DNA of 64,000 nt from a virus (Duplodnaviria > Caudoviricetes). Position 1 is the first letter of the stretch, and each line of letters begins with the position of its first letter. This document shows, piece after piece, positions 7,643 to 33,509 of this stretch. Both the position numbers and the translations under genes were made by a program. The stretch is from the IMG/VR virus record IMGVR_UViG_3300012984_000010. One strand, given 5' to 3'. The notes below the pieces were generated by a model. The model saw only the letters and a list, made by a program, of their open reading frames with translations, did no database searches and was not told where the DNA came from.

Positions 7643-8548
7643 ATGCGGATTCTTATCGTAGAAGACAGTGCCACCGACCGCCAATTGCTCCGTTACTTGC
7701 TTGAGGACAAATTTATGTCCGAGGCAAAGTTTCGGGAGGCTAGCAATCTTGCCACAGCCGTCAAGTACCTGGATGCGGGCAATATCGACTGCGTTCTGTT
7801 GGACCTTCAATTACCTGATTCCGCTGGGAAAGAAACTTTTGAGAAGCTGATTAGTCGCTTCCCCGATGTGCCGATCATCGTGATGACCAACAACAAGGAC
7901 CGTGACCTGGCGGTCAACATGATCAAGCTGGGGGCAGCCGACTACATCCTCAAGTCCTACACCGACGAGGAGGAGCTTTTTCGTCGAATCGTGTTCGCAA
8001 TCGAGAAACATCGGAGGACCGTTCGCATGCCGATCGACAATGCCTCCAGTATCCACAAGCTGGAACGAGCTCAAGCCAACCTCGCCTCGGCCCACAAGAG
8101 TGGCGAACATGGGGCGATCCGCTCGACAACGATGGAGACCACCACCGCCATTGCGGACCTGTCCAAGAGTCTGTTCACCGAGCTACAAGCGATCTCTGGC
8201 AAGCTGACCCAGCAGGACACACGGGTCGGCCACATGGAGGATATTGTTCGCACCTTGGAACAGGAGCTGCTGAAAGGGCACCCTACCCGTGCCTCAATGC
8301 GTTCTCAGGTGGATCTGATCGATCACCGGCTCACCCAAAACGAGCAAGGACTGAAGTCGGTCAGAGACGGGTTGAAACACGATGACGAGACTCAACGAAT
8401 GAGCGCGGTGTCGTTGCATCAAACCCGCATGACCAACAAGACCAAGCTATTGCTGGGAGTGTTGACCCTAATTGGAGCTATCGCCACAGCAGTGGCTTCC
8501 TACGAGGCCTCCAATGGAGGGAAGGCCGACACAGGGCATCACCCGTGA
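7643..8548 (+). CDS. Response regulator (REC) fused to coiled coil and C-terminal transmembrane segment
   Basis: ILIVEDS, LLDLQLPD, PIIVMT, GAADYILK; hydrophobic LLLGVLTLIGAIATAVA near C-terminus. Confidence 0.9.
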   Translation: MRILIVEDSATDRQLLRYLLEDKFMSEAKFREASNLATAVKYLDAGNIDCVLLDLQLPDSAGKETFEKLISRFPDVPIIVMTNNKDRDLAVNMIKLGAADYILKSYTDEEELFRRIVFAIEKHRRTVRMPIDNASSIHKLERAQANLASAHKSGEHGAIRSTTMETTTAIADLSKSLFTELQAISGKLTQQDTRVGHMEDIVRTLEQELLKGHPTRASMRSQVDLIDHRLTQNEQGLKSVRDGLKHDDETQRMSAVSLHQTRMTNKTKLLLGVLTLIGAIATAVASYEASNGGKADTGHHP

Positions 8549-9612
8549 ATGCGGTGGACCATTTGAAAGCTGCCTTCGACGATTCTTGTGTTCCACAGAT
8601 CGTGATAGGTTTAGACGGGGGGATCCTGACCGCTAATGAACCAGCGTGGGAATTACTGGGAGAAACCAAAGAAGGGTTGCTTCAGAAGCGGCACCACGAA
8701 TTGATATCAGGGGATCCTCTTCCCTTGGAGGAATTGTTACAGAAGTTCGACAGCGACAACTATTTGCAGAACTGGCAACACGAATTTCAATATTTGCGTA
8801 AAGACAACCCAATGGTTTGGGTTCGTGTCAGTATATCTGCAATCCGTCAGAACGGAAAGGCGGCTGCTCTATTGGCCCAACTACAAGATATAACGGATCA
8901 AAAACAGATTGAAGTAGACCTGCATCGAAATAGCGACGACCTGGATCAGTTCGCCTATATCGCAAGTCATGACTTGAGGGAACCTTTGACCGTCATGGCA
9001 GGTTACGCCACCCTTCTGAAGAAGCGTTGCTATGAGTCTTTGGATGAGAAGGGTAAACATTTCCTTGAAGAAGTGATTGACAGTACGGTGCGAATGGAAC
9101 GCAAGATCGACGACCTGTTGGCTTTCTCAAGGGCTGGCCGAACGACTCCAAAAGCCGTCTTCCAGTTGGAAACAGCGATCGAGGAAGCAAGGCGCTCAGT
9201 GGGCCGAAGTATTGAGGAGTCGGGGGCCGTCTTCATCATCCCAGAGGGGTTACCGTTCGTAAGCGGTGACCGCAGCATGATCGCTCAGGTGTTTCAGAAC
9301 CTGTTCTCCAATTCAATCAAGTACAGGAATCCGGATAGCCCCCCAATCATCACAGTAGCAGTCACGCCTCATGACGACATTTTCCTCCGAGTGTCGGTGT
9401 CCGACAACGGTTTGGGGTTTGATATGGAACACAAAGATCGTATCTTCGGAGTGTTCCAGAGGCTCTACACGGAAGAGCAGTACCCAGGAACCGGTATCGG
9501 GCTAGCGATCGTCAAACGAATTGTAGAGCGGCACCGAGGCGCCATCTGGACCACCTCTGAGCCCAATCATGGAGCCACGTTCTTCTTTACCATACCTAGG
9601 GCCGATGCCTGA
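8545..9612 (+). CDS. PAS-domain sensor histidine kinase
   Basis: H-box FAYIASHDLREPL, N-box QVFQNLFSNSIKY, G-boxes DNGLGF and GTGIGLAIV. Confidence 0.95.
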   Translation: MNAVDHLKAAFDDSCVPQIVIGLDGGILTANEPAWELLGETKEGLLQKRHHELISGDPLPLEELLQKFDSDNYLQNWQHEFQYLRKDNPMVWVRVSISAIRQNGKAAALLAQLQDITDQKQIEVDLHRNSDDLDQFAYIASHDLREPLTVMAGYATLLKKRCYESLDEKGKHFLEEVIDSTVRMERKIDDLLAFSRAGRTTPKAVFQLETAIEEARRSVGRSIEESGAVFIIPEGLPFVSGDRSMIAQVFQNLFSNSIKYRNPDSPPIITVAVTPHDDIFLRVSVSDNGLGFDMEHKDRIFGVFQRLYTEEQYPGTGIGLAIVKRIVERHRGAIWTTSEPNHGATFFFTIPRADA

Positions 9613-14814: not shown

Positions 14815-14942
14815 TGGCGCCGCTTCCAGGAGTCGAACCTGGCGAAGCTTGTAAGCTCTACTTTGGAACCCCTTTCAGGGTCGAGATAGAGAGCGGGGGA
14901 TTGGTTTCCTTAACAGGGAAATTGGACCCACGTCCAAGCGGC
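14815..14942 (-). ncRNA. Five-arm tRNA-like RNA, member 1 (unpermuted; Asn GUU loop, G73, CCA)
   Basis: GCCGCTT/AAGCGGC acceptor; TTTCC-CTGTTAA-GGAAA; extra arm with CCGCTCT, CTC-G and TACAAGC; T arm. Confidence 0.8.
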
Positions 14943-14948
14943 ATATTC

Positions 14949-15088
14949 AGTTACAATCGAGTGCGTCAACCAGTTTTGCTGTTTTTCTTGATAGGAAAAT
15001 GTCCTGCCACTAGACGATATTCCCCGAAGGGAGTAACGGGAATCGAACCCGTGCATTGCGTGTATGGTTGATGCTGGTGACTGTAACC
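14949..15088 (-). ncRNA. Five-arm tRNA-like RNA, member 2 (circularly permuted)
   Basis: Order T arm, acceptor 3' strand, UUCG, acceptor 5' strand, D arm, anticodon arm; ends pair GGTTACAGTC/GATTGTAACT; TACACGC. Confidence 0.8.
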
Positions 15089-15277: not shown

Positions 15278-15853
15278 TCAGACGGCGAACACTCCCTGTG
15301 GGTTGATTTGGTAACCCGTCTGCTTCCCATTGCTGAGAAACAGTCGTGCCGAGTGGGCCAAGAAGCTGGCCGTGATGCTGATGAAGGGAAGGTGTTCTCC
15401 ATCTTCACACGTGGCCGCCCCACCAGCCCCCTCATCATCGATTTCGAAGCCGGCGTCCCAAACGACTCGGCCGAAGCCGCCATTGGCCGCCAGGGCCCCA
15501 TGCAGGCATGGAGTTTTGGTCTTGCGAGCGAAGGCTTGCACGATCCGCCTCGCCTGACCGTTGTCCAGGCAATCGATGATCAGGTCCGATCGGCCCAGCA
15601 ACTGAGTATCGTTTTCCGATGTCAGCTTGTGGGGGATCGTCTCAATCTTGGTGCCAAAGAGGAAATTCATCGTCTGTTGGATCGATTGGGTCTTACTCTT
15701 GCCCACATGCGTCTTCGAGTGGAACTGCGAACTGACGTTCTTTTGCTCCACCCGATCGTAGTCGATGATGCGAAGCGTCGCCTCGACGTTTCGAAGCAAC
15801 ATGACAACGTGGGAACCCAGGGCTCCCACACCCACGATGGTGACGATCTTCAT
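15278..15853 (-). CDS. ThiF/MoeB/E1-like adenylyltransferase
   Basis: IVGVGALGSH, IDYDRVEQKNV, IIDCLDN; single Cys in ATCEDG. Confidence 0.92.
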   Translation of the reverse strand: MKIVTIVGVGALGSHVVMLLRNVEATLRIIDYDRVEQKNVSSQFHSKTHVGKSKTQSIQQTMNFLFGTKIETIPHKLTSENDTQLLGRSDLIIDCLDNGQARRIVQAFARKTKTPCLHGALAANGGFGRVVWDAGFEIDDEGAGGAATCEDGEHLPFISITASFLAHSARLFLSNGKQTGYQINPQGVFAV

Positions 15854-15879
15854 GTTGTCTCTATACGGTTTTAGTGCGG

Positions 15880-16080
15880 TCAGGTTAAGGGTGTTTGAGC
15901 ACAAGCGTAGTACTGTTCTTCAGCTTCTCTCAACTTAACCTTGAGCCATCGGTCTTTACGGATCCATGTCAGATCCTGGGAAATCTCTCCCCTGGATTCA
16001 TGAAAAGACACCTGACGACGGAGACGTGCAATGCGTTGATCAAGCAACACTAATGCACGCTCCTGTTCATCAAACGTCAA
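15880..16080 (-). CDS. Small hypothetical protein
   Basis: 66-aa helical ORF within the operon. Confidence 0.5.
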   Translation of the reverse strand: MTFDEQERALVLLDQRIARLRRQVSFHESRGEISQDLTWIRKDRWLKVKLREAEEQYYACAQTPLT

Positions 16081-16081
16081 T

Positions 16082-16339
16082 TCAGGCTCCGAACGGAACC
16101 TTTGGACGCAGCATGAGACGGTTGTACGGGATGTCGTCAGTGGCCGGATAGCGGTCCACTACGAAATCGGTGAAGTTGGCGGTCGGATCAGCCGTGATAC
16201 CTGGGATGCCAGAATGCACTGCCTCAGTGGCCCACGTCTGAATGGACGCAAGACCTGCGTCATAGTTGACCGGATCCGGCAACTCGCCCAGCTGGGCATT
16301 GTACGAGATGATCAGTTTCGCTTGGTTAGTTTCCATCAT
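16082..16339 (-). CDS. Ubiquitin-like (beta-grasp) protein, predicted
   Basis: 85 aa ending RPKVPFG-A, between JAB and E1 genes. Confidence 0.7.
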   Translation of the reverse strand: MMETNQAKLIISYNAQLGELPDPVNYDAGLASIQTWATEAVHSGIPGITADPTANFTDFVVDRYPATDDIPYNRLMLRPKVPFGA

Positions 16340-16351
16340 AATCTCCGTTAT

Positions 16352-16780
16352 TTAGAGTCCTTGCTGACTCTCGATGGAGACAGCAATCAAGTTTGAAAGT
16401 TCGCGTAGCTTGATGAGCCAATCGGGAATCTCCCAATCTTCCTCACCATCTTCGAATTGACCGCCATGAGCGTAGTCGTACAAGCCTGGGCCTTTCCAGG
16501 TAAAGAACGCCACATGGTCTGATGAGGTGATGGGCCACACCAATCGGCGACCCAACCCTCTCTCAACGGCCGAAAAAGTAGTCAGATCTTCGTGAGAAGG
16601 GGCGACTGGTCCTGATCCAGGATGACTGTGGGCAAAACCATATAGGTTTTGATGGTTGTTCAGCAACACCTCCCACAAGTCTCTGCTGTCAGGCAGATAA
16701 CCAACCGACCGTCCAGGAGGTAGGTGCCAGTAAATAACACTCTCATCCTTCGCCAACACCACTCCTGTTTCAATCGACAT
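16352..16780 (-). CDS. JAB/MPN+ metallopeptidase
   Basis: JAMM motif FAHSHPGSGPVAPSHEDL. Confidence 0.88.
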   Translation of the reverse strand: MSIETGVVLAKDESVIYWHLPPGRSVGYLPDSRDLWEVLLNNHQNLYGFAHSHPGSGPVAPSHEDLTTFSAVERGLGRRLVWPITSSDHVAFFTWKGPGLYDYAHGGQFEDGEEDWEIPDWLIKLRELSNLIAVSIESQQGL

Positions 16781-17729
16781 GTCTAAAAACCACCAGTTTC
16801 CTTTCACGCTGTGCTTCCCGAATTACACCAGGGAGAGTCTCCAGCGTGAGCCAAGTATCTCCTTTGGTGCCTTCTTCAAAGGCTTCGTCATCGTAATGGG
16901 CCGTCAAACAGATACCGGCGTCAATGATCTGCAGTGTATGTTGGTGGCACACACATTCAAAACGCTGACCATCTAGTCTGAATCGAATCACCATCTCGTT
17001 CCGGTGAGGTGCTTGACGAGTGTCAAGAAGCTGGGCGCCGCCTACCGACAGGGCTGCCCGAGCGGCCTGTTGGAAGTCTACTCGTGCCATCGCCCTACGG
17101 CCGGCACTATCGCCAAGTTGCTCAACAAGACGGCGGCGGTTTTCCTCGCGCTGCCGTGCCTCTTCAGCCTCCTGTCTGACACGTTCGGCTTCTACCCGCC
17201 TTCTTTCCGCTTCAACCCTCTGCAGGGTCTCCATCCGGAAAGCGGCATCTAGGGCCGGTGTGACGCCAAGAATGTGGTCCAAGGAGTCTTTCTCATCCAG
17301 GAAGGCATCAAGAACCTGTTGTTCAGGTCCCAGCGGCATTTCCTGGTTCATGAAAATCAGTGGTCCGTCATCAAAGACTCGGCCCACTGCAATCCGTGAA
17401 AATCGATCGACACCTGCTTCGATCAAGAACACTTCTGGGTGTTGTGCCGCGATATCCCGTAGGTTGATCGCCCTGACCAGATTGTCCGCAACGAATCTAT
17501 TTCCCACAAGATAACCGCATTCCTTGTGGAGCAGCATCTCAGGGTCTGGGTCAGACTCAGACCTGAGGGTCAATTTCTGACCCTTAGCGTTGAAAACATA
17601 CCAACCATGTTCCTGGGGAGTCTTGCCTTCGAGGCGGTATTCAGTGTAATCCGCGCCCAAAAGGGTGCGGCCACCTGTCCAAGGGAATACCTTGGATTGT
17701 TCTACCTCAAGCAAGTCTCTCCAGGACAT
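16770..17729 (-). CDS. Hypothetical protein in Ro/Ubl operon (coiled coil plus IDAGICL domain)
   Basis: 319-aa ORF overlapping the JAB start. Confidence 0.75.
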   Translation of the reverse strand: MSWRDLLEVEQSKVFPWTGGRTLLGADYTEYRLEGKTPQEHGWYVFNAKGQKLTLRSESDPDPEMLLHKECGYLVGNRFVADNLVRAINLRDIAAQHPEVFLIEAGVDRFSRIAVGRVFDDGPLIFMNQEMPLGPEQQVLDAFLDEKDSLDHILGVTPALDAAFRMETLQRVEAERRRVEAERVRQEAEEARQREENRRRLVEQLGDSAGRRAMARVDFQQAARAALSVGGAQLLDTRQAPHRNEMVIRFRLDGQRFECVCHQHTLQIIDAGICLTAHYDDEAFEEGTKGDTWLTLETLPGVIREAQRERKLVVFRHVD

Positions 17730-17782
17730 GATACTATCTAACGGTCACCTGGAGGAGAGGTTTAGTCTCCTCCAGGCTCTTT

Positions 17783-19639
17783 TCAGGCTGCCCAAGCAGG
17801 CTTCTGTAGCAGGTCGGTCGCCAAGATGGTGTCCACAAGGGACAGACGAGGCTTGACCTGCGCCCTGGTTGCTGCGGCCGTTACCGGCGTAGCAGCGATC
17901 AGGTTACGAAGCACGCGAGGCACAGCGTACGGGTCGGTGAACGTCTTCTCATCGATCTCGAAGCACGGGATATTCAAACGAACAGCCGTTTCCTTGACCG
18001 CAGTACCTTGACCGTATTGACGGGAAGGAGTGGGGATGAGACCGAATGCGACCGGATTGAGGTCAGATTCCTGAACAGCTCGGCTGAATTGGGGGGCACC
18101 CTCATCACCAACGAAGATGAATAGGACATCCCTACCTGCAACAGGCCTGTACTTCTTGAGAGCAAGTACACCAGCACCGTAATCCGTACCACCACCTGCC
18201 TTGATACCTGAGAAGGCGTTGGTGACACCTGCTGCTGAAGCGTGAGGGATTCTTACTTCACGTCCCGCTGTGTTGAACACCGAAACGTGAAGATTATCCA
18301 GCGGGAAAGCTGGAACCATCTGAGAGATATATCGCTTAGCCTTCTCGATCGCCTCATCCATCGAACCAGAGATGTCGACAATGACGTAGACTTCCAGGTC
18401 CTTGGCCACTTCCTCGACAGCCTTTTGGACTGCCGTATCCGCCGCCTCCTGCAAGGCTTCCTTGACTTCCTTGGACTTGACCCGCAAAGCGACGTTAGCC
18501 GCCCGCTGGTCTTCCGCCTTCCTGAGGGCCGCCTGCCAACGCCCCTGAATGTCAGGAACCTTGAGCAAACCGTGCGATTCAAGGGTCTCGCTGTAGATGA
18601 TTAGGTCCTTGTCGGAAAGGGATCCCGATTCGATCGAGGCCGCCAATACAGCTCGGGTGAGACCAATCTGATCTGGCAACATACCGACGATTCGCTTGAA
18701 ATCGGGCTTTTGGGCCACGATCCGTTCGCAAATCTGTTCCTCAGTGAGACCTGCCCACGACTCAGCTGCCTTGACGGCCTTACCGATGGCGATCGTACGG
18801 TGACCGTCCTTCGCCTGGTCCTGCTTCCAACGAAGCAATTGGAAGAACTTCTCCGTTGTCGGCTTGTACCCGATCGCTCGTGCCAAACGAATGAGCGAGG
18901 TCCGGAAACCCTTCTTGATCAGACCCTTGAGCAGTTGCTGGTTGACCTCACGGTAACGCAACCACTTCTCGATCACTCGGGGGAGACGACCCAAGAAGGC
19001 GTTGCGCTGGCTCTGGCCGAAACCCAACTCACGGTTGACGGCCGCGACCTCGTCCAACTCCAAGAAATCCAGAAGGCGCAAGATCATCTTGACGTCCAGG
19101 AACTTCTTCCCGTCGCAAAGTACCATCGCCTCACCGATGTCTCGGAAGTCCTCATCGTAGAACGCCACCTTACCAGCATCCAAGACCGGATCGCCCTTAC
19201 GGGTCTGAACCAACATGAATGCCGCCAAAGCTACCTTCAAGTCACGGTGATCTTCACCGTAGGCGTAGCTAGCCCAACGAGCTGCAAACTCGTTGTCGAG
19301 CCGCCATACTTCGGCGATCTGGCGGTACATCCACTCAGCCACCTCAGGGAATAGGCCTGGCTTCATGTAGCGACCGACAATCGTACGACCGTCCAACACC
19401 TTACCGTCGGCACTCAAGGTGCCAAGACGAATCAGGTTCGTCTTCTTGCCCGCCTTTTCCTTGCGGTAGACGACCTTCTGGCCGGCCTCTTCCTTGTAGG
19501 TAACTGGAGACCACTTCACCTTGGTGACGGAAGTAGGGTCCGGCTGGACGATTCCTGGCCTATTGTGTACAGCATGATCGGAATAGGCCAAAAGCGTGTT
19601 GATGATGCGCTCTGCAGGGCCCAGGTTTTCATTTGCCAT
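17783..19639 (-). CDS. Ro60/TROVE-like helical domain plus C-terminal vWA protein
   Basis: vWA: VIVDISGSM, GGGTDY, FVGDE; helical N-terminus with KKGFRTSLIRLARAIGYKP resembling the TROVE signature. Confidence 0.72.
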   Translation of the reverse strand: MANENLGPAERIINTLLAYSDHAVHNRPGIVQPDPTSVTKVKWSPVTYKEEAGQKVVYRKEKAGKKTNLIRLGTLSADGKVLDGRTIVGRYMKPGLFPEVAEWMYRQIAEVWRLDNEFAARWASYAYGEDHRDLKVALAAFMLVQTRKGDPVLDAGKVAFYDEDFRDIGEAMVLCDGKKFLDVKMILRLLDFLELDEVAAVNRELGFGQSQRNAFLGRLPRVIEKWLRYREVNQQLLKGLIKKGFRTSLIRLARAIGYKPTTEKFFQLLRWKQDQAKDGHRTIAIGKAVKAAESWAGLTEEQICERIVAQKPDFKRIVGMLPDQIGLTRAVLAASIESGSLSDKDLIIYSETLESHGLLKVPDIQGRWQAALRKAEDQRAANVALRVKSKEVKEALQEAADTAVQKAVEEVAKDLEVYVIVDISGSMDEAIEKAKRYISQMVPAFPLDNLHVSVFNTAGREVRIPHASAAGVTNAFSGIKAGGGTDYGAGVLALKKYRPVAGRDVLFIFVGDEGAPQFSRAVQESDLNPVAFGLIPTPSRQYGQGTAVKETAVRLNIPCFEIDEKTFTDPYAVPRVLRNLIAATPVTAAATRAQVKPRLSLVDTILATDLLQKPAWAA

Positions 19640-21151: not shown

Positions 21152-21224
21152 CGCCCTCGGCAGGAATCGAACCTGCATCATCGACTTCGGAAATCGGTAC
21201 CTTATCCAATTAGGCAACAAGGGC
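21152..21224 (-). tRNA. tRNA-Arg(CCG)
   Basis: Loop TTCCGAA. Confidence 0.88.
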
Positions 21225-21405
21225 ATTCAGTACCCTTTCTGGGCCCACCCAAGTAGCTACTCCTGGGAACCTCCCCTTTATTGGAGGGGTGCTCTGAGAT
21301 GTCAGTGGGCTGATTGATCAGAAAAGTCCTGGAAGTGGATTCGGCGCCGAATCTTCATCCCGTTTCTGACGGCAATTGAGCTATGGGTCCAGAAAAGATA
21401 CTGGG

Positions 21406-21489
21406 CGGAAGCCAACCGAATCGAACGGTATGCTGTTACACACGCACTCCTTAGCAGGGAGGCCTCACACCACTGTGAGTTTAGCTTCC
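21406..21489 (-). tRNA. tRNA-Ser(GCU)
   Basis: Loop CTGCTAA; G73; long variable arm. Confidence 0.85.
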
Positions 21490-21563
21490 ATAGGTGTCCG
21501 AGGAGCATAGCCGGCTCCCCGGACGGGTTTGTGAAACTGCATAGGGCCCATCACGGCATTTAA

Positions 21564-21697
21564 GATCACCGATTAGCTCTAAAGCCCGTACGGCTTGCCA
21601 TTAGTCGACCCCCCAGCTCTGCTGATTAACCTGTGTTGATCAACACAGCTGGGGAGGCGGGATTCGAACCCACATGTACGGAGAATTGCCGATGACC
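21564..21697 (-). ncRNA. Circularly permuted tRNA-like RNA opened at the anticodon arm (copy B)
   Basis: 3' half (T arm, CTCCCCA-G) precedes 5' half (TGGGGGG, D arm); TACGG/CCGTA stem; terminal GGTCATCG/CGGTGATC. Confidence 0.75.
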
Positions 21698-21725
21698 GTT
21701 TGAAAGATGGGACGCAGTATCGTAA

Positions 21726-21909
21726 CAAGCTTGTACCCAAACCTCAGCTTTACGGATGCATGGTGTGTCTCTTGCCAATTTGGACTACCTCCCAGTATTG
21801 CTAGCTAACCTTAGCTAGTTAGCAGTGGCTGGGAGGGTAGGAATCGAACCTACACAGGGCTTTCGCCCACACCTAAGCACATTTCAAAATGAGTCTCAGA
21901 TTCAGCTTG
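21726..21909 (-). ncRNA. Circularly permuted tRNA-like RNA opened at the anticodon arm (copy A, CCA encoded)
   Basis: Variable arm, T arm, CCTCCCA-G-CCA, hairpin linker, TGGGAGG, D arm; ACACC/GGTGT stem extended by long terminal pairing. Confidence 0.78.
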
Positions 21910-21919
21910 GGGGTTCCTT

Positions 21920-22660
21920 TCAGGGGGCGAACAAGAAGTCAAACACGGCTTGGCCGGCGACTACCTTGGGCACCTCCACGAGATTTGCTTGCTCACGAGC
22001 AGTCTTGACTGCGGCCATGAGGCTTTCGATTCGAGCACGAAGTTTTTGAGCTCGGTCACGAGACACAGCTCCTGAGAATTTGGTGGTTGACCAGTAACCC
22101 ACCAGCTTGTCCTCTTGAAGAGTCTCTACTTGAGCAGGGTGCTCCTTCGTTGCGTCGTACTTGACGAACGCTCGGGGCAGCTTCTTGGTCCTGCTGGTCT
22201 CCACCACAGCCGTCTTGAAGGCGGAGGTAGCGGAATCGTACGTCCAAGTGTCGGTCTGCGGCAAGACCGGAAGCTTGACGATGTAGGTATGGAGATCAGT
22301 GAGTTGCTTCTCCAACCAGAGCAGATAGGTGGCCGGAACATCTTTGAGAAGCGTGACCCCATCAACCACCACATCAGCCTTGGCCAGTGTGTTGGCCGCG
22401 TCACGTCCCAAGGTGATGTCGAACAAGGCGGTGAACTGTCGACCTACTTCCTTCAACGTCTCCTCAACACGAACCTGAACCTGAGTGTTCTCTGGCGGCA
22501 GTTTCTCACCATCTTCCTCGATCGGTCGATAGGTACGAGCGATACCACTCAACAACGGGTCCTTCTGCAGAAGGTGATAAAGGGCCGTCACCTGTTCATG
22601 TGTGTTGGTCTTGATCTGCTTCTCTACAGCCAAGATCTGATTCAACTTCTGTGCCATCAT
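21920..22660 (-). CDS. Conserved coiled-coil hypothetical protein
   Basis: 246-aa ORF with AGGAGA RBS; KLNQILAVEK...SGIARTYRP. Confidence 0.75.
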   Translation of the reverse strand: MMAQKLNQILAVEKQIKTNTHEQVTALYHLLQKDPLLSGIARTYRPIEEDGEKLPPENTQVQVRVEETLKEVGRQFTALFDITLGRDAANTLAKADVVVDGVTLLKDVPATYLLWLEKQLTDLHTYIVKLPVLPQTDTWTYDSATSAFKTAVVETSRTKKLPRAFVKYDATKEHPAQVETLQEDKLVGYWSTTKFSGAVSRDRAQKLRARIESLMAAVKTAREQANLVEVPKVVAGQAVFDFLFAP

Positions 22661-22721
22661 ATCTCCTAGTCTGATCTTAATTTGGTCAGTGTGTGGCCGT
22701 CCATACACCGAACTTCTTAAG

Positions 22722-29012: not shown

Positions 29013-29161
29013 TGAAGGCGTTCGAGAAAAGAGAGCGGTATGTCTGTTAGGACGGTCTATTGAACCGGTGCGTCTGCCATTCCGCCACCCCTTCATAAAG
29101 TGAAGGGGGCAGGATTCGAACCTGCAAAAGCTTGTGAGCTCTCTCGAAGTGAATGCCTTCA
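29013..29161 (-). ncRNA. Five-arm tRNA-like RNA, member 4 (circularly permuted)
   Basis: CACAAGC, T arm, CCCCTTC-ACTTTAT-GAAGGGG, D arm, hairpin, CCGCTCT, CTC-G; terminal stem TGAAGGCATTC/GAACGCCTTCA. Confidence 0.8.
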
Positions 29162-33367: not shown

Positions 33368-33509
33368 CACGATGCTTCGAGAATTGGAGAGCGGGAAATT
33401 GACAGTTGGATATACTGTTGCCTTACCATTAGGCTATTTCCCCATATTAGAGGGGAAACCGGGAATCGAACCCAGATAGCTTGTAGGCACTCCTTAGTGA
33501 AACATCGTG
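33368..33509 (-). ncRNA. Five-arm tRNA-like RNA, member 7 (permuted)
   Basis: 11-bp terminal stem CACGATGTTTC/GAAGCATCGTG; TACAAGC; TTTCCCC-TCTAATAT-GGGGAAA; CCGCTCT; CTC-G. Confidence 0.82.

What the first reader, a model, noticed from the sequence alone, without database searches (positions are those of the whole stretch)
21564..21909. Two tandem permuted tRNA-like RNAs split at the anticodon arm
Seen: each locus has the 3' half (T arm plus 7-bp acceptor strand, G73) upstream of the 5' half, joined by a hairpin linker of about 30 nt; the anticodon stem forms between the ends and extends into a long bulged helix. Copy A encodes CCA and a long variable arm and has a 3-nt bulge (UUA) next to the anticodon stem. 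They lack the motifs of the seven-member family. Inference: Deinococcus-type Y RNAs, two-piece tRNAs matured like permuted tmRNA, or permuted tRNA precursors joined by the phage RtcB.
Basis: partly seen in the sequence, partly recalled or inferred. Interest (0 to 1): 0.8.

Follow-up and report, generated by a model that had tools for sequence, protein, structure and literature searches.

The report
Double tRNA-mimic RNA beside DUF7873
The two back-to-front tRNA look-alikes are real, and they form a conserved RNA cassette that always follows one protein gene of unknown function (DUF7873) in many phages and bacteria, so they look like an undescribed cousin of bacterial Y RNAs rather than genes for working tRNAs.

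Summary
On the minus strand, copy A (21908-21727) and copy B (about 21702-21553) each read: 5' stem strand, (V arm), T arm, 7-nt acceptor 3' strand, G73, hairpin linker, acceptor 5' strand, D arm, 3' stem strand. Each folds this way on its own, and covariation supports the fold: 28 of 31 pairs in the B family show double changes, and window-versus-relative comparisons give 11 and 15 double changes. The read-through tRNA (21649-21795) is refuted.

This is the layout of YrlA-type Y RNAs. Rfam's YrlA model aligns full-length to relatives but scores below threshold (24-38 bits against a cut-off of 69).

The constant neighbour is not Ro60. It is the gene that ends 11 nt upstream, DUF7873. A B-type RNA lies just downstream in 19 of 21 assessable DUF7873 loci. 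These include cultured phages with complete genomes that lack any TROVE or Ro-like gene, and bacterial chromosomes. Only 4 of 61 loci with the Ro60-like gene carry the cassette.

Best reading: a non-decoding double tRNA mimic that works with DUF7873. Binding, processing and expression are untested. Maturation into a true permuted tRNA is unlikely.

This scan reached the same reading earlier on at least 23 other genomes. I found no publication on it.

The parts
21920..22708 (-). DUF7873 protein gene. The listed ORF is 262 aa from GTG. The likely product is 245 aa from the internal ATG, ending at the same stop 11 nt before copy A.
   Evidence: Pfam PF25283 E 2.4e-95. The 245-aa form is in the protein collection (P0121). 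Homologues sit immediately upstream of the A-B pair in every relative found.
21727..21908 (-). Copy A: a permuted tRNA-like domain with a class II-like D arm (3-bp stem), a V hairpin, G73-CCA, and a 35-nt linker counted from G73.
   Evidence: MFE -66 kcal/mol with the permuted fold. Compensatory changes against L083 and L003 in the T stem, acceptor, D stem, AC-like stem and linker.
21857..21868 (-). Variable-arm hairpin of A (GGGC GAAA GCCC).
   Evidence: Sequence. Relatives keep a hairpin with different loops: GAAA, GCAA, GUA.
21837..21853 (-). T arm of A (GUAGG UUCGAUU CCUAC).
   Evidence: Sequence. The pair 21851:21839 changes A-U to U-A in L083 and L003.
21826..21836 (-). Acceptor 3' strand CCUCCCA, G73 and CCA of A.
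   Evidence: 7/7 pairing with 21794-21788. Three double changes against L003.
21795..21825 (-). Linker hairpin that closes the acceptor stem of A.
   Evidence: Folds at -11 kcal/mol. Strain variants at 21818/21819 keep or improve the pairing. The sequence is replaced in L083 and L003 but a hairpin is kept.
21767..21794 (-). Acceptor 5' strand UGGGAGG, U8 A9, and the D arm of A (GUC CAAAUUGGCAAGA GAC).
   Evidence: Sequence. The D stem changes U-A to C-G in L083.
21553..21702 (-). Copy B: a permuted tRNA-like domain with a class I-like D arm (4-bp stem), a short variable region, G73, and a 34-nt linker counted from G73.
   Evidence: Covariance model R1 and alignment A5: 95% of cells paired, 16 of 31 pairs with double changes. 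Extended set: 28 of 31. Full-length R1 hits in 15 other loci.
21616..21673 (-). T arm, acceptor 3' strand CUCCCCA, G73 and linker hairpin of B.
   Evidence: Variants at 21633, 21634 and 21636 fall in the loop or change A-U to G.U.
21578..21584 (-). Anticodon-loop-like heptamer CUUUAGA, lying just after the AC-like stem of B on the 3' side of a large internal loop.
   Evidence: U at the second and a purine at the sixth position in 9 of 9 family members, with varying middle triplets.
21553..21571 (-). 3' strand of B's terminal helix, with the invariant bulge CUUAAA (21564-21559) and the outer stem GCCGU.
   Evidence: CUUAAA is invariant in the four huge-phage members and present in the actinophage and bacterial copies. 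All 6 pairs of helix 1 covary.
17783..19639 (-). Ro60-like protein (helical N domain plus C-terminal vWA), 1.9 kb downstream on the same strand. It is a possible partner but not a required one.
   Evidence: vWA by Pfam. The N domain's three best matches among 48,161 PDB chains are all Ro60 (Z 9.3, 8.9, 8.3; the next is 6.5). The full-length Foldseek top hits are TROVE/Ro60. There is no sequence-level TROVE match.

Best explanation
The locus is one member of a widespread, unpublished cassette: a DUF7873 protein gene followed on the same strand by two tandem tRNA-mimic domains.

Each domain is a circularly permuted tRNA shape of the YrlA (bacterial Y RNA) type:
- T and D arms able to form the tRNA elbow
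- an acceptor stem closed by a hairpin
- the RNA's own 5' and 3' ends paired into a bulged helix where the anticodon loop would be.

Domain A is class II-like and often keeps N73-CCA in the acceptor loop. Domain B is class I-like, shows an anticodon-loop-like heptamer in an internal loop, and has a conserved CUUAAA bulge.

Shown here: the fold, its conservation, and the gene-RNA linkage.

Inferred: the RNA is a non-decoding scaffold or decoy that is transcribed with, and bound by, DUF7873. It would form a Ro60-independent particle acting on tRNA-directed processes, for example sensing, decoying or repairing damage by tRNA-cutting defence nucleases. That would fit its place inside phage tRNA arrays.

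In this phage the Ro60-like protein 1.9 kb downstream may also bind it. Domain A may be nicked by RNase P in the acceptor loop, as M. smegmatis YrlA is.
For: Fold:
- The MFE of the whole stretch and of each copy gives the permuted fold.
- B family: 95% of cells paired, 16/31 pairs with double changes, 0/500 shuffles, slid controls 34-51%. Extended alignment: 94% paired, 28/31.
- Window MFE pairs mapped on relatives: 11 double changes and 5 broken of 106 pairs in L083; 15 double changes in L003.
- 10 of the 11 base substitutions seen in close strain variants lie in loops or spacers or keep the pair; one (21587) breaks a pair.

Linkage:
- DUF7873 ends 11 nt before A.
- Among 61 huge-phage loci, DUF7873 occurs only in the 4 that have A-B, each time directly upstream.
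- 10 cultured phages, 4 bacterial chromosomes and 3 further contigs with DUF7873 all have an unannotated 340-700-nt gap downstream.
- A B-type RNA lies in that gap in 19 of 21 assessable loci, with R1 scores of 23-148 bits, usually preceded by an A-type module.

Ro independence:
- The complete genomes of phages Mimi, Phendrix, Keelan and NiceHouse have no TROVE and no Ro-like protein.
- The bacterial loci have none within 3-6 kb.

Kinship to YrlA:
- Same order of elements as described in PMC4201824 and 10.1101/312249.
- RF02553 aligns full-length to relatives at 24-38 bits, E down to 1e-6 in a local search.
Against: - There are no data on transcripts, ends, binding or processing.
- DUF7873 has no recognisable RNA-binding or catalytic domain and a near-neutral pI. 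Adjacency alone does not show binding.
- An earlier audit of the same claim in this scan (note e1-2703945) priced the 'protein binds the RNA, no Ro60 needed' reading at 22/100. It also reported one pattern-based test in which only 17.8% of DUF7873 genes had the RNA, although a later fold test gave 20 of 21.
- The window itself does carry a Ro60-like gene nearby, so Ro-type binding here is not excluded.
- The plus strand folds about as stably (z = -4.9). Strand assignment therefore rests on tRNA motifs, neighbours and covariation, not on energy.
Confidence: 0.6

Rival explanations
1. Classical Y RNAs. Both RNAs are bound by the phage's own Ro60-like protein (17783-19639) and tether or gate it (for example with host PNPase), as YrlA does with Rsr and as Yrl1/Yrl2 do with the Ro60 of Thermus phage phiLo. 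This is not exclusive of the best explanation.
For: - YrlA topology.
- The Ro60-like gene lies 1.9 kb downstream on the same strand here, and likewise in L003 and L083.
- Its N domain's three best PDB matches are Ro60 proteins, and it carries the C-terminal vWA of Ro60.
- phiLo encodes two Y-like RNAs upstream of its Ro60 (PMC12135203).
- Chen 2014 found YrlA within 4 kb of Ro60 on the same strand.
Against: - Only 4 of 61 loci with this Ro-like gene carry the A-B cassette.
- The cassette is present in complete phage genomes and bacterial loci without any TROVE or Ro-like gene.
- In L005 it lies 8 kb on the other side of the gene.
- The GNCGAA(N)G Ro-binding motif is not conserved. In A it sits in the V hairpin and is lost in L083 and L005. 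In B it is UCAAACGG.
- The Ro-like protein has no sequence-level TROVE match.
Confidence: 0.2
2. True permuted tRNA genes, or two-piece tRNAs. The end helix is cut and the ends are ligated (for example by a phage RtcB), and the linker is removed by RNase P and 3' trimming. This would yield a decoding or at least chargeable tRNA, with B's heptamer as the anticodon loop (UUA here).
For: - Exact 7-bp acceptor stems followed by N73.
- CCA at 74-76 in 21 of 52 unique permuted modules, about the same share as in 1002 canonical tRNAs of the same loci (37%). CCA is kept in 7 of 11 A-type copies.
- B's heptamer has U33 and R37 in 9 of 9 members.
- M. smegmatis YrlA is cut by RNase P and receives CCA (PMC4201824).
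Against: - A has no anticodon-loop-like segment.
- No bulge-helix-bulge geometry is conserved.
- The end helices and their bulges (CUUAAA) are conserved and covary, which is not expected of a discarded leader and trailer.
- Many B copies close the acceptor with a 6-7-nt loop lacking CCA.
- The window's CCA is CAA in L083 and CUC in L003.
- The middle triplets vary (UUA, CAG, CAA, GUU, GAA, AUA) without matching changes of discriminator.
- No splicing-type endonuclease is known in bacteria or phages.
Confidence: 0.07
3. A cis-acting 3' element of the DUF7873 mRNA. The tRNA-like folds would serve only as RNase P/RNase Z processing signals or 3' stabilisers for the message, with no function of their own.
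For: - The RNA always lies directly 3' of the gene on the same strand, 11-350 nt after the stop.
- No promoter-like site lies between gene and RNA in the window.
- The bacterial copies end at a strong terminator-like hairpin after B.
Against: - Two distinct domain types (A and B) are kept in the same order from Pseudomonadota phages to Actinomycetota and Chloroflexota chromosomes.
- Single-stranded motifs are conserved (CUUAAA, UCRAMYG, the heptamer) and the end helices covary. That is far more than a processing signal needs.
Confidence: 0.08
4. One ordinary tRNA with a large insert (read-through pairing 21649-21795), or a permuted tmRNA.
For: A's 5' acceptor strand can pair 6/7 with B's 3' acceptor strand. 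The T arm-acceptor-linker-acceptor order is also that of permuted tmRNA genes.
Against: - The read-through stretch does not fold as a tRNA (-37 kcal/mol, no cloverleaf).
- Its acceptor has an A.C mismatch here and two mismatches in L003, whereas the permuted pairings covary.
- ARAGORN and Rfam call nothing there.
- For tmRNA: no G3:U70, no room for a tag frame or pseudoknots, and permuted-tmRNA models match only the T arm at 8-25 bits.
Confidence: 0.01

Closest known systems
YrlA (Y RNA-like A; Rfam RF02553), the Ro60/Rsr-bound bacterial and mycobacteriophage Y RNA (Chen et al. 2014, PMC4201824; Wang et al. 2018, 10.1101/312249)
   Same: - Circularly permuted tRNA shape: V, T arm, closed acceptor stem-loop of variable length, D arm.
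- The 5' and 3' ends pair into a long bulged stem in place of the anticodon loop.
- tRNA elbow nucleotides are kept, and some members have class II-like long variable arms.
- The M. smegmatis member has a 7-bp acceptor stem, is cut by RNase P and gains CCA.
- The Rfam model aligns over its full length to relatives of A and B.
   Different: - Scores are far below Rfam's cut-off (none in the window; 24-38 bits in relatives against 69).
- The Ro-binding motif GNCGAA(N)G is not conserved.
- Two distinct domains always come in tandem.
- The constant neighbour is DUF7873, and the cassette occurs in genomes with no TROVE protein.
- B keeps an anticodon-loop-like heptamer, which YrlA lacks.
Yrl1/Yrl2 of Thermus phage phiLo with phage Ro60 (PMC12135203)
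   Same: Two Y-like RNAs encoded in tandem upstream of a phage Ro60-type gene. In this window A and B also lie upstream of a Ro60-like gene on the same strand.
   Different: The phiLo RNAs were picked by a CGAA motif and shown to bind a bona fide Ro60. Here the Ro-like protein is only a structural look-alike, binding is untested, and the RNAs travel with DUF7873 instead.
Permuted tRNA genes of Cyanidioschyzon merolae and other algae (from my own knowledge: Soma et al. 2007)
   Same: The 3' half (T arm, acceptor 3' strand) is encoded upstream of the 5' half, joined by a linker. The termini pair next to the anticodon stem.
   Different: Those precursors carry a bulge-helix-bulge cut by the splicing endonuclease, are circularised and become decoding tRNAs. 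Here there is no conserved BHB, A has no anticodon loop, the end helices are conserved, and no such endonuclease is known in bacteria or phages.
The same DUF7873 + double tRNA-mimic RNA noted earlier by this scan on other genomes (for example e1-2703945, e1-4274050, e1-3598349; unpublished AI notes)
   Same: Same protein family, same A-then-B tandem, same YrlA-like reading, also inside phage tRNA clusters.
   Different: This copy has unusually long acceptor linkers (34-35 nt), G73-CCA and a GNRA V hairpin in A. It lies in a roughly 475-kb phage that also encodes a Ro60-like protein 1.9 kb away and several other permuted tRNA-like RNAs.

Membership tests
YrlA (Rfam RF02553) | Element order V - T arm - closed acceptor stem-loop - D arm, with the 5' and 3' ends paired in place of the anticodon loop | tested here: met
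   MFE folds. Covariation in the B family and in A against L083 and L003.
YrlA (Rfam RF02553) | tRNA elbow nucleotides (T loop UUCRANY, GG in the D loop, U8) that allow the L shape | tested here: met
   A has UUCGAUU, AAAUUGGCAAGA and U8 A9. B has UUCGAAU, AAUGGCA and U8. The 3D fold itself was not tested.
YrlA (Rfam RF02553) | Score at or above Rfam's gathering cut-off (69 bits) | tested here: not met
   No YrlA match at E<=10 on 21200-22300. Relatives of B and A score 24-38 bits over the full model.
YrlA (Rfam RF02553) | GNCGAA(N0-1)G motif near the 5' end (proposed Ro60 contact) | tested here: not met
   A has GGCGAAAG, but as the V-hairpin loop, and it is lost in L083 (CGUAG) and L005 (GCAA). 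B has UCAAACGG. Relatives have AUCGAACGG or AUCGACCG, which lack the first G.
YrlA (Rfam RF02553) | Encoded within about 4 kb of a Ro60/TROVE gene on the same strand | tested here: inconclusive
   In the window a Ro60-like gene (structural similarity only) lies 1.9 kb downstream on the same strand. Most family members have no TROVE or Ro-like gene at all.
YrlA (Rfam RF02553) | Bound by Ro60/Rsr | not testable with these tools
   Needs immunoprecipitation or a gel shift.
DUF7873-linked double tRNA-mimic RNA (unpublished; defined here and in earlier notes of this scan) | Lies directly downstream of a DUF7873 gene on the same strand | tested here: met
   The gene at 21920-22708 (PF25283, E 2.4e-95) ends 11 nt before A. 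The same holds in 19 of 21 assessable loci.
DUF7873-linked double tRNA-mimic RNA (unpublished; defined here and in earlier notes of this scan) | Two permuted domains in fixed order: A with a class II-like 3-bp D stem, then B with a 4-bp D stem, a short variable region and a 3' CUUAAA bulge | tested here: met
   Window, L003, L040, L005, L083, Mimi, Phendrix, NiceHouse, KpLz-2_45, phiRSL1 and Actinomadura.
Permuted tRNA genes (algal type) | Bulge-helix-bulge motif at the paired termini | tested here: not met
   Loop and helix geometry next to the AC-like stem differs between the window, L003, L040 and L005, with no 3-4-3 pattern.
Permuted tRNA genes (algal type) | A complete 7-nt anticodon loop is restored when the ends are joined | tested here: inconclusive
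   A has no candidate. B has a heptamer with U33 and R37 in 9/9 members, but it is followed by conserved, paired sequence rather than a discardable trailer.
Two-piece (permuted) tmRNA | G3:U70 alanine identity pair, a tag reading frame, pseudoknots, and a match to the permuted tmRNA models | tested here: not met
   Pair 3:70 is G-C in both copies. Only about 50 nt follow the D arm. The models match only the T arm/acceptor core at 8-25 bits against cut-offs of 47-84.

The most novel reading that the evidence does not exclude
DUF7873 and the two-headed RNA form a Ro60-independent ribonucleoprotein, found in phages and bacteria, that uses two different tRNA decoys. One is an acceptor/CCA-type head that RNase P can open and that might even be charged. 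The other is an anticodon-type head that displays a variable triplet. The particle would sense, absorb or repair attack by tRNA-cutting defence nucleases. The variable triplet would track the tRNA species targeted in each host.
Probability: 0.2. Interest if true: 0.85.

Novelty: new variant of a known kind. Interest (0 to 1): 0.68.

Why it matters
tRNA mimics are rare and informative: tmRNA, viral tRNA-like structures and YrlA. This one is common. The DUF7873 family has at least 3,796 proteins in the collection searched. It occurs from cultured Klebsiella, Ralstonia, Vibrio, Rhizobium and actinobacterial phages to Actinomycetota and Chloroflexota chromosomes. It is absent from Rfam and from the papers I could search, and it gives a first functional handle on a domain of unknown function.

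If DUF7873 binds the RNA, Y-RNA-like particles are not tied to Ro60. The question of what the tRNA-like head of YrlA is for, left open by its discoverers, would then become testable in easy phage-host pairs. The cassette's position inside phage tRNA arrays points to the conflict over tRNA cleavage between phages and hosts.

For this window in particular, a Ro60-like gene, the DUF7873 cassette and several other permuted tRNA-like RNAs occur together in one 475-kb phage. That makes it a natural place to ask which protein takes which RNA.

Tried and rejected
- Expression: no RNA holder was listed for the stretch. The four DNA runs I laid gave only contigs of strain variants.
- Exact-pattern scans of viral and metagenome contigs with conserved A and B words found only the L003 phage again. 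blastn against cultured phages with the RNA found nothing. Relatives were reached only through the proteins.
- DUF7873: no hit in PDB sequences, NCBIfam or PHROGs, and no secondary Pfam family. The ESM Atlas returned only DUF7873 and unnamed viral clusters. No paper holds the word. Both structure-prediction jobs had gone to the Ro-like protein, so DUF7873 was not folded or fold-searched.
- Ro-like protein: no TROVE match from a single sequence or a profile. Foldseek with the N domain alone was weak (E 0.04). The second look at the full model was swamped by vWA domains.
- The closest protein relatives L064 and L065 (77% and 75% identity in the Ro-like protein) have no A/B within 10 kb.
- Folding energy does not tell the strand: the plus strand has z = -4.9.
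- GNCGAA in A's V hairpin was considered as a Ro site and dropped, because it is not kept in relatives.
- An origin of A and B from three tandem tRNAs (the dimeric-tRNA model of Sim and Wolin) was considered. A's class II D arm and B's short variable region do not fit one ancestral middle tRNA, so I left it as speculation.
Full report
WHAT IS THERE

The window comes from a huge soil phage. The contig is 475,623 bp, and the nearest named relative is Virus Rctr197k. It has about 44 tRNA genes and a tmRNA, nearly all on the minus strand. ARAGORN and Rfam call nothing at 21553-21908.

Read on the minus strand, the stretch holds two units of the same plan.

Copy A (21908-21727):
- a 5' strand
- a V hairpin GGGC-GAAA-GCCC
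- a T arm GUAGG-UUCGAUU-CCUAC
- the acceptor 3' strand CCUCCCA, then G73 and CCA
- a hairpin linker
- the acceptor 5' strand UGGGAGG
- U8 A9 and a D arm with a 3-bp stem and a GG-containing loop
- a 3' strand that pairs back to the 5' strand (GGUGU/ACACC, internal loop UUA/AU, GUGC/GCAU, and further stems).

Copy B (about 21702-21553) has the same order, with a short variable region, acceptor CUCCCCA/UGGGGGG (one G.U pair), G73, a 34-nt hairpin linker counted from G73, and a 4-bp D stem.

An unconstrained MFE fold of the whole 391 nt, and of each copy alone, returns exactly this architecture.

IS IT MORE THAN CHANCE?

I reached relatives through the neighbouring proteins. The tandem pair is present in:
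- L003 (the same phage as L066)
- L040
- L005
- L053
- L083, the closest relative: 80% identity in the upstream protein, and the same synteny down to the Ro-like gene.

I mapped the window's own MFE pairs (106 pairs) onto an alignment:
- L083: 79 pairs unchanged, 10 changed on one side, 11 changed on both sides with pairing retained, 5 broken.
- L003: 15 double changes.

The double changes fall in the T stems, both acceptor stems, the D stem, the AC-like stems, the terminal helix of B and the linker hairpins.

For B, a four-sequence alignment gives 95% of cells paired and 16 of 31 pairs with double changes. No shuffle out of 500 reaches this, and slid controls give 34-51% paired. A model-fitted alignment of 16 hits gives 94% paired and 28 of 31 pairs, including all six pairs of the terminal helix. 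That alignment leans towards the structure by construction.

The acceptor pairing that covaries is the permuted one. The read-through pairing loses a second base pair in L003.

Strain variants in soil metagenomes carry 11 base substitutions and one 1-nt deletion within or between the RNAs. Ten substitutions lie in loops or spacers or preserve pairs (A-U to G.U, C-G to U.G, A.C to G-C). One, at 21587, breaks a pair.

A simple scanner for T arm + 7 nt + linker + complementary 7 nt + D arm finds 73 hits on the gene strand of 63 related sequences. It finds 6 on the other strand and 1 in reversed controls.

WHAT KIND OF RNA IS IT?

The element order is that of YrlA, the tRNA-mimicking bacterial Y RNA: V, T, closed acceptor, D, with the ends paired where the anticodon loop would be. 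Its authors describe YrlA as resembling a circularly permuted tRNA with a loop-closed acceptor stem of variable length. Some members have long variable arms. One member (M. smegmatis) has a 7-bp stem that RNase P cuts, followed by CCA addition (PMC4201824; 10.1101/312249).

Rfam's YrlA model does not reach the window's copies, probably because of the 34-35-nt linkers. It does align over its full length to B, and more weakly to A, in relatives. Scores are 24-38 bits, with E down to 1e-6 in a local search, against a cut-off of 69 bits. The RNAs are therefore YrlA-like in architecture and perhaps in ancestry, but not members by Rfam's criterion.

The proposed Ro-binding motif GNCGAA(N)G is not conserved. 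A's GGCGAAAG is the loop of the V hairpin and becomes CGUAG in L083 and GCAA in L005. B has UCAAACGG where relatives have AUCGAACGG or AUCGACCG.

WHICH PROTEIN GOES WITH IT?

My first lead was Ro60. The 618-aa protein at 17783-19639, 1.9 kb downstream on the same strand, has a C-terminal vWA domain and a helical N domain. In an exhaustive comparison of a predicted model (pLDDT 82) with 48,161 PDB chains, its three best matches are all Ro60 proteins:
- D. radiodurans Rsr, Z 9.3
- Thermus phage phiLo Ro60, Z 8.9
- Xenopus Ro, Z 8.3.

The next match scores 6.5. Full-length Foldseek also ranks TROVE/Ro60 first. There is no sequence-level TROVE signal, and the first 95 residues are a beta domain that Ro60 lacks. 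I therefore call the protein Ro60-like, not Ro60.

The comparative data then pointed elsewhere.
- The gene that ends 11 nt before copy A is a DUF7873 protein.
- Among the 61 huge-phage loci collected through the Ro-like protein, DUF7873 occurs in only four. Those are exactly the four that have A and B, each time immediately upstream of A.
- DUF7873 is present in 74 cultured phage records. In ten that I fetched it is followed by an unannotated gap of 340-700 nt, often inside a tRNA array.
- The B model finds full-length matches in that gap in NiceHouse, Phendrix, Mimi, Keelan, KpLz-2_45 and Vibrio K479. It finds core matches in phiRSL1 and Rhizobium Y65.
- An A-type module precedes B in six of them.
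- Four bacterial chromosomes (Streptosporangium, Ktedonobacter, Actinomadura and one more) and three further contigs show the same pattern: DUF7873, then A, then B at 46-148 bits. In the three bacterial loci folded, a terminator-like hairpin follows.
- Overall, 19 of 21 assessable DUF7873 loci carry a B-type RNA just downstream.
- The complete genomes of Mimi, Phendrix, Keelan and NiceHouse contain no TROVE domain and no relative of the Ro-like protein. The bacterial loci have none nearby.

The constant partner gene of this RNA is therefore DUF7873.

FEATURES THAT MAY BEAR ON MECHANISM

A and B are two distinct, ordered domain types. A has a class II-like D arm (3-bp stem, loop of the AAUUGGUAGA kind). 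It keeps N73-CCA in the acceptor loop in 7 of 11 copies, even when that loop is only 7-10 nt. In the window's nearest relatives, however, the CCA is CAA or CUC.

Across all permuted modules of these loci, 21 of 52 encode CCA, about the share seen in 1002 canonical tRNA genes (37%).

B has an invariant 3' bulge CUUAAA. Directly after its AC-like stem it has a heptamer that obeys anticodon-loop rules, with U at position 2 and a purine at position 6 in 9 of 9 members. The middle triplet differs between members: UUA, CAG, CAA, GUU, GAA, AUA. In B this heptamer is one side of a large internal loop, not a closed loop.

DUF7873 itself gave no clue:
- about 244 aa, single domain, near-neutral pI
- conserved motifs such as TN..AKADV, LPTLD...W, ATDKHPAQV and AVK.AREEAN
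- no hit in PDB, NCBIfam or PHROGs.

MECHANISM

Shown: the fold, its conservation, and the gene-RNA linkage in phages and bacteria without Ro60.

Inferred, at about 0.6 for the overall reading and lower for each step: the RNA is a non-decoding tRNA mimic transcribed with the DUF7873 message and bound by that protein. Its role would lie in tRNA-directed conflict or repair, given its place in phage tRNA arrays and, in one bacterium, next to an RNA ligase gene.

Domain A may be opened by RNase P, as M. smegmatis YrlA is. In this phage the Ro60-like protein may bind as well.

The true permuted-tRNA reading gets about 0.07, for these reasons:
- there is no conserved bulge-helix-bulge
- A has no anticodon loop
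- many relatives have short closed acceptor loops
- the end helices are conserved.

PRIOR KNOWLEDGE

Known in print:
- phage-encoded YrlA with Ro60 in 22 phages (PMC4201824)
- two Y-like RNAs upstream of a phage Ro60 (PMC12135203)
- TROVE proteins with a tRNA-like partner in a few jumbo phages (PMC7824862).

I found no paper mentioning DUF7873 and no Rfam family for this RNA.

After I had reached the DUF7873 link myself, I searched this scan's earlier notes. At least 26 findings in 23 or more other genomes describe the same 'double tRNA-mimic RNA beside DUF7873', usually as one RNA of about 360-400 nt with two heads. A later audit of one of them let the observation stand but priced the 'DUF7873 binds it, Ro60 not needed' claim at 22/100. 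I did not test whether A and B are one molecule or two. In the window each domain closes on itself, and 24 nt separate them.

VERDICT

The permuted-precursor option is unlikely, and the read-through tRNA is refuted. The locus is a new variant of a known kind (YrlA-like tRNA mimics) with a new, conserved protein neighbour. Interest 0.68.

Noticed in passing
window 15278-19639 (-): The Ro60-like vWA protein (17783-19639) heads a tight same-strand gene row that includes a JAB/MPN peptidase (16352-16807, Prok-JAB E 2.7e-5) and a ThiF/E1-like protein (15278-15904, E 1.2e-24). The Ro-like family has more than 1,400 members at about 60% identity, mostly on contigs of 100-600 kb.
   Followed up: partly
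window 33475-33437, 33257-33217, 32357-32305, 29125-29088, 14998-15057 (-): Further permuted tRNA-like modules (T arm, acceptor 3' strand, 7-22-nt linker, acceptor 5' strand, D arm) are scattered in the tRNA array. One (33420-33476) gives a weak Rfam YrlA hit of 24.5 bits. They are a different family from A/B, and similar modules cluster 3-7 kb downstream of the Ro-like gene in many of the 61 related loci.
   Followed up: partly
window 14845-14852, 21727-21734, 29128-29135 (-): All three minus-strand copies of ACAAGCTT lie at the edge of tRNA-like RNAs (one is A's 3' end). This may be a shared processing or transcription signal. The total count in the window (4) is not above chance.
   Followed up: partly
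window 57093-57262 (+): Two adjacent tRNAs with anticodon CUA (amber suppressors; ARAGORN labels them Pyl). B's heptamer here would read UUA, the ochre-type triplet. I made no link between the two.
   Followed up: no
window 21578-21584 (-) and relatives: B's anticodon-loop-like heptamer keeps U33 and R37 while its middle triplet changes between phages and bacteria. I did not test whether the triplet tracks the host or its defence nucleases.
   Followed up: partly
L079:7168-8232 (Actinomadura terrae): An RNA ligase gene (Pfam RNA_ligase plus PHA02142) converges on the DUF7873-A-B cassette. In phage NiceHouse a band-7-like membrane protein gene follows the cassette after one tRNA.
   Followed up: no
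L068:563-1091 (Gordonia phage Phendrix): Rfam finds a tmRNA (89 bits) in a stretch of the tRNA array where the record's feature table lists nothing.
   Followed up: no
L069:3490-3612 (Gordonia phage Keelan): An unannotated tRNA-like element in normal order (acceptor GCAACGG/CCGUUGC, T arm GAGGG-UUCAAGU-CCCUC) lies between the DUF7873 gene and tRNA-Thr. Here the A-B pair lies beyond that tRNA.
   Followed up: no
window 7643-9612 (+): The phage encodes a response regulator (7643-8548) and a PAS histidine kinase (8545-9612). The same pair is seen in the relative L064.
   Followed up: no
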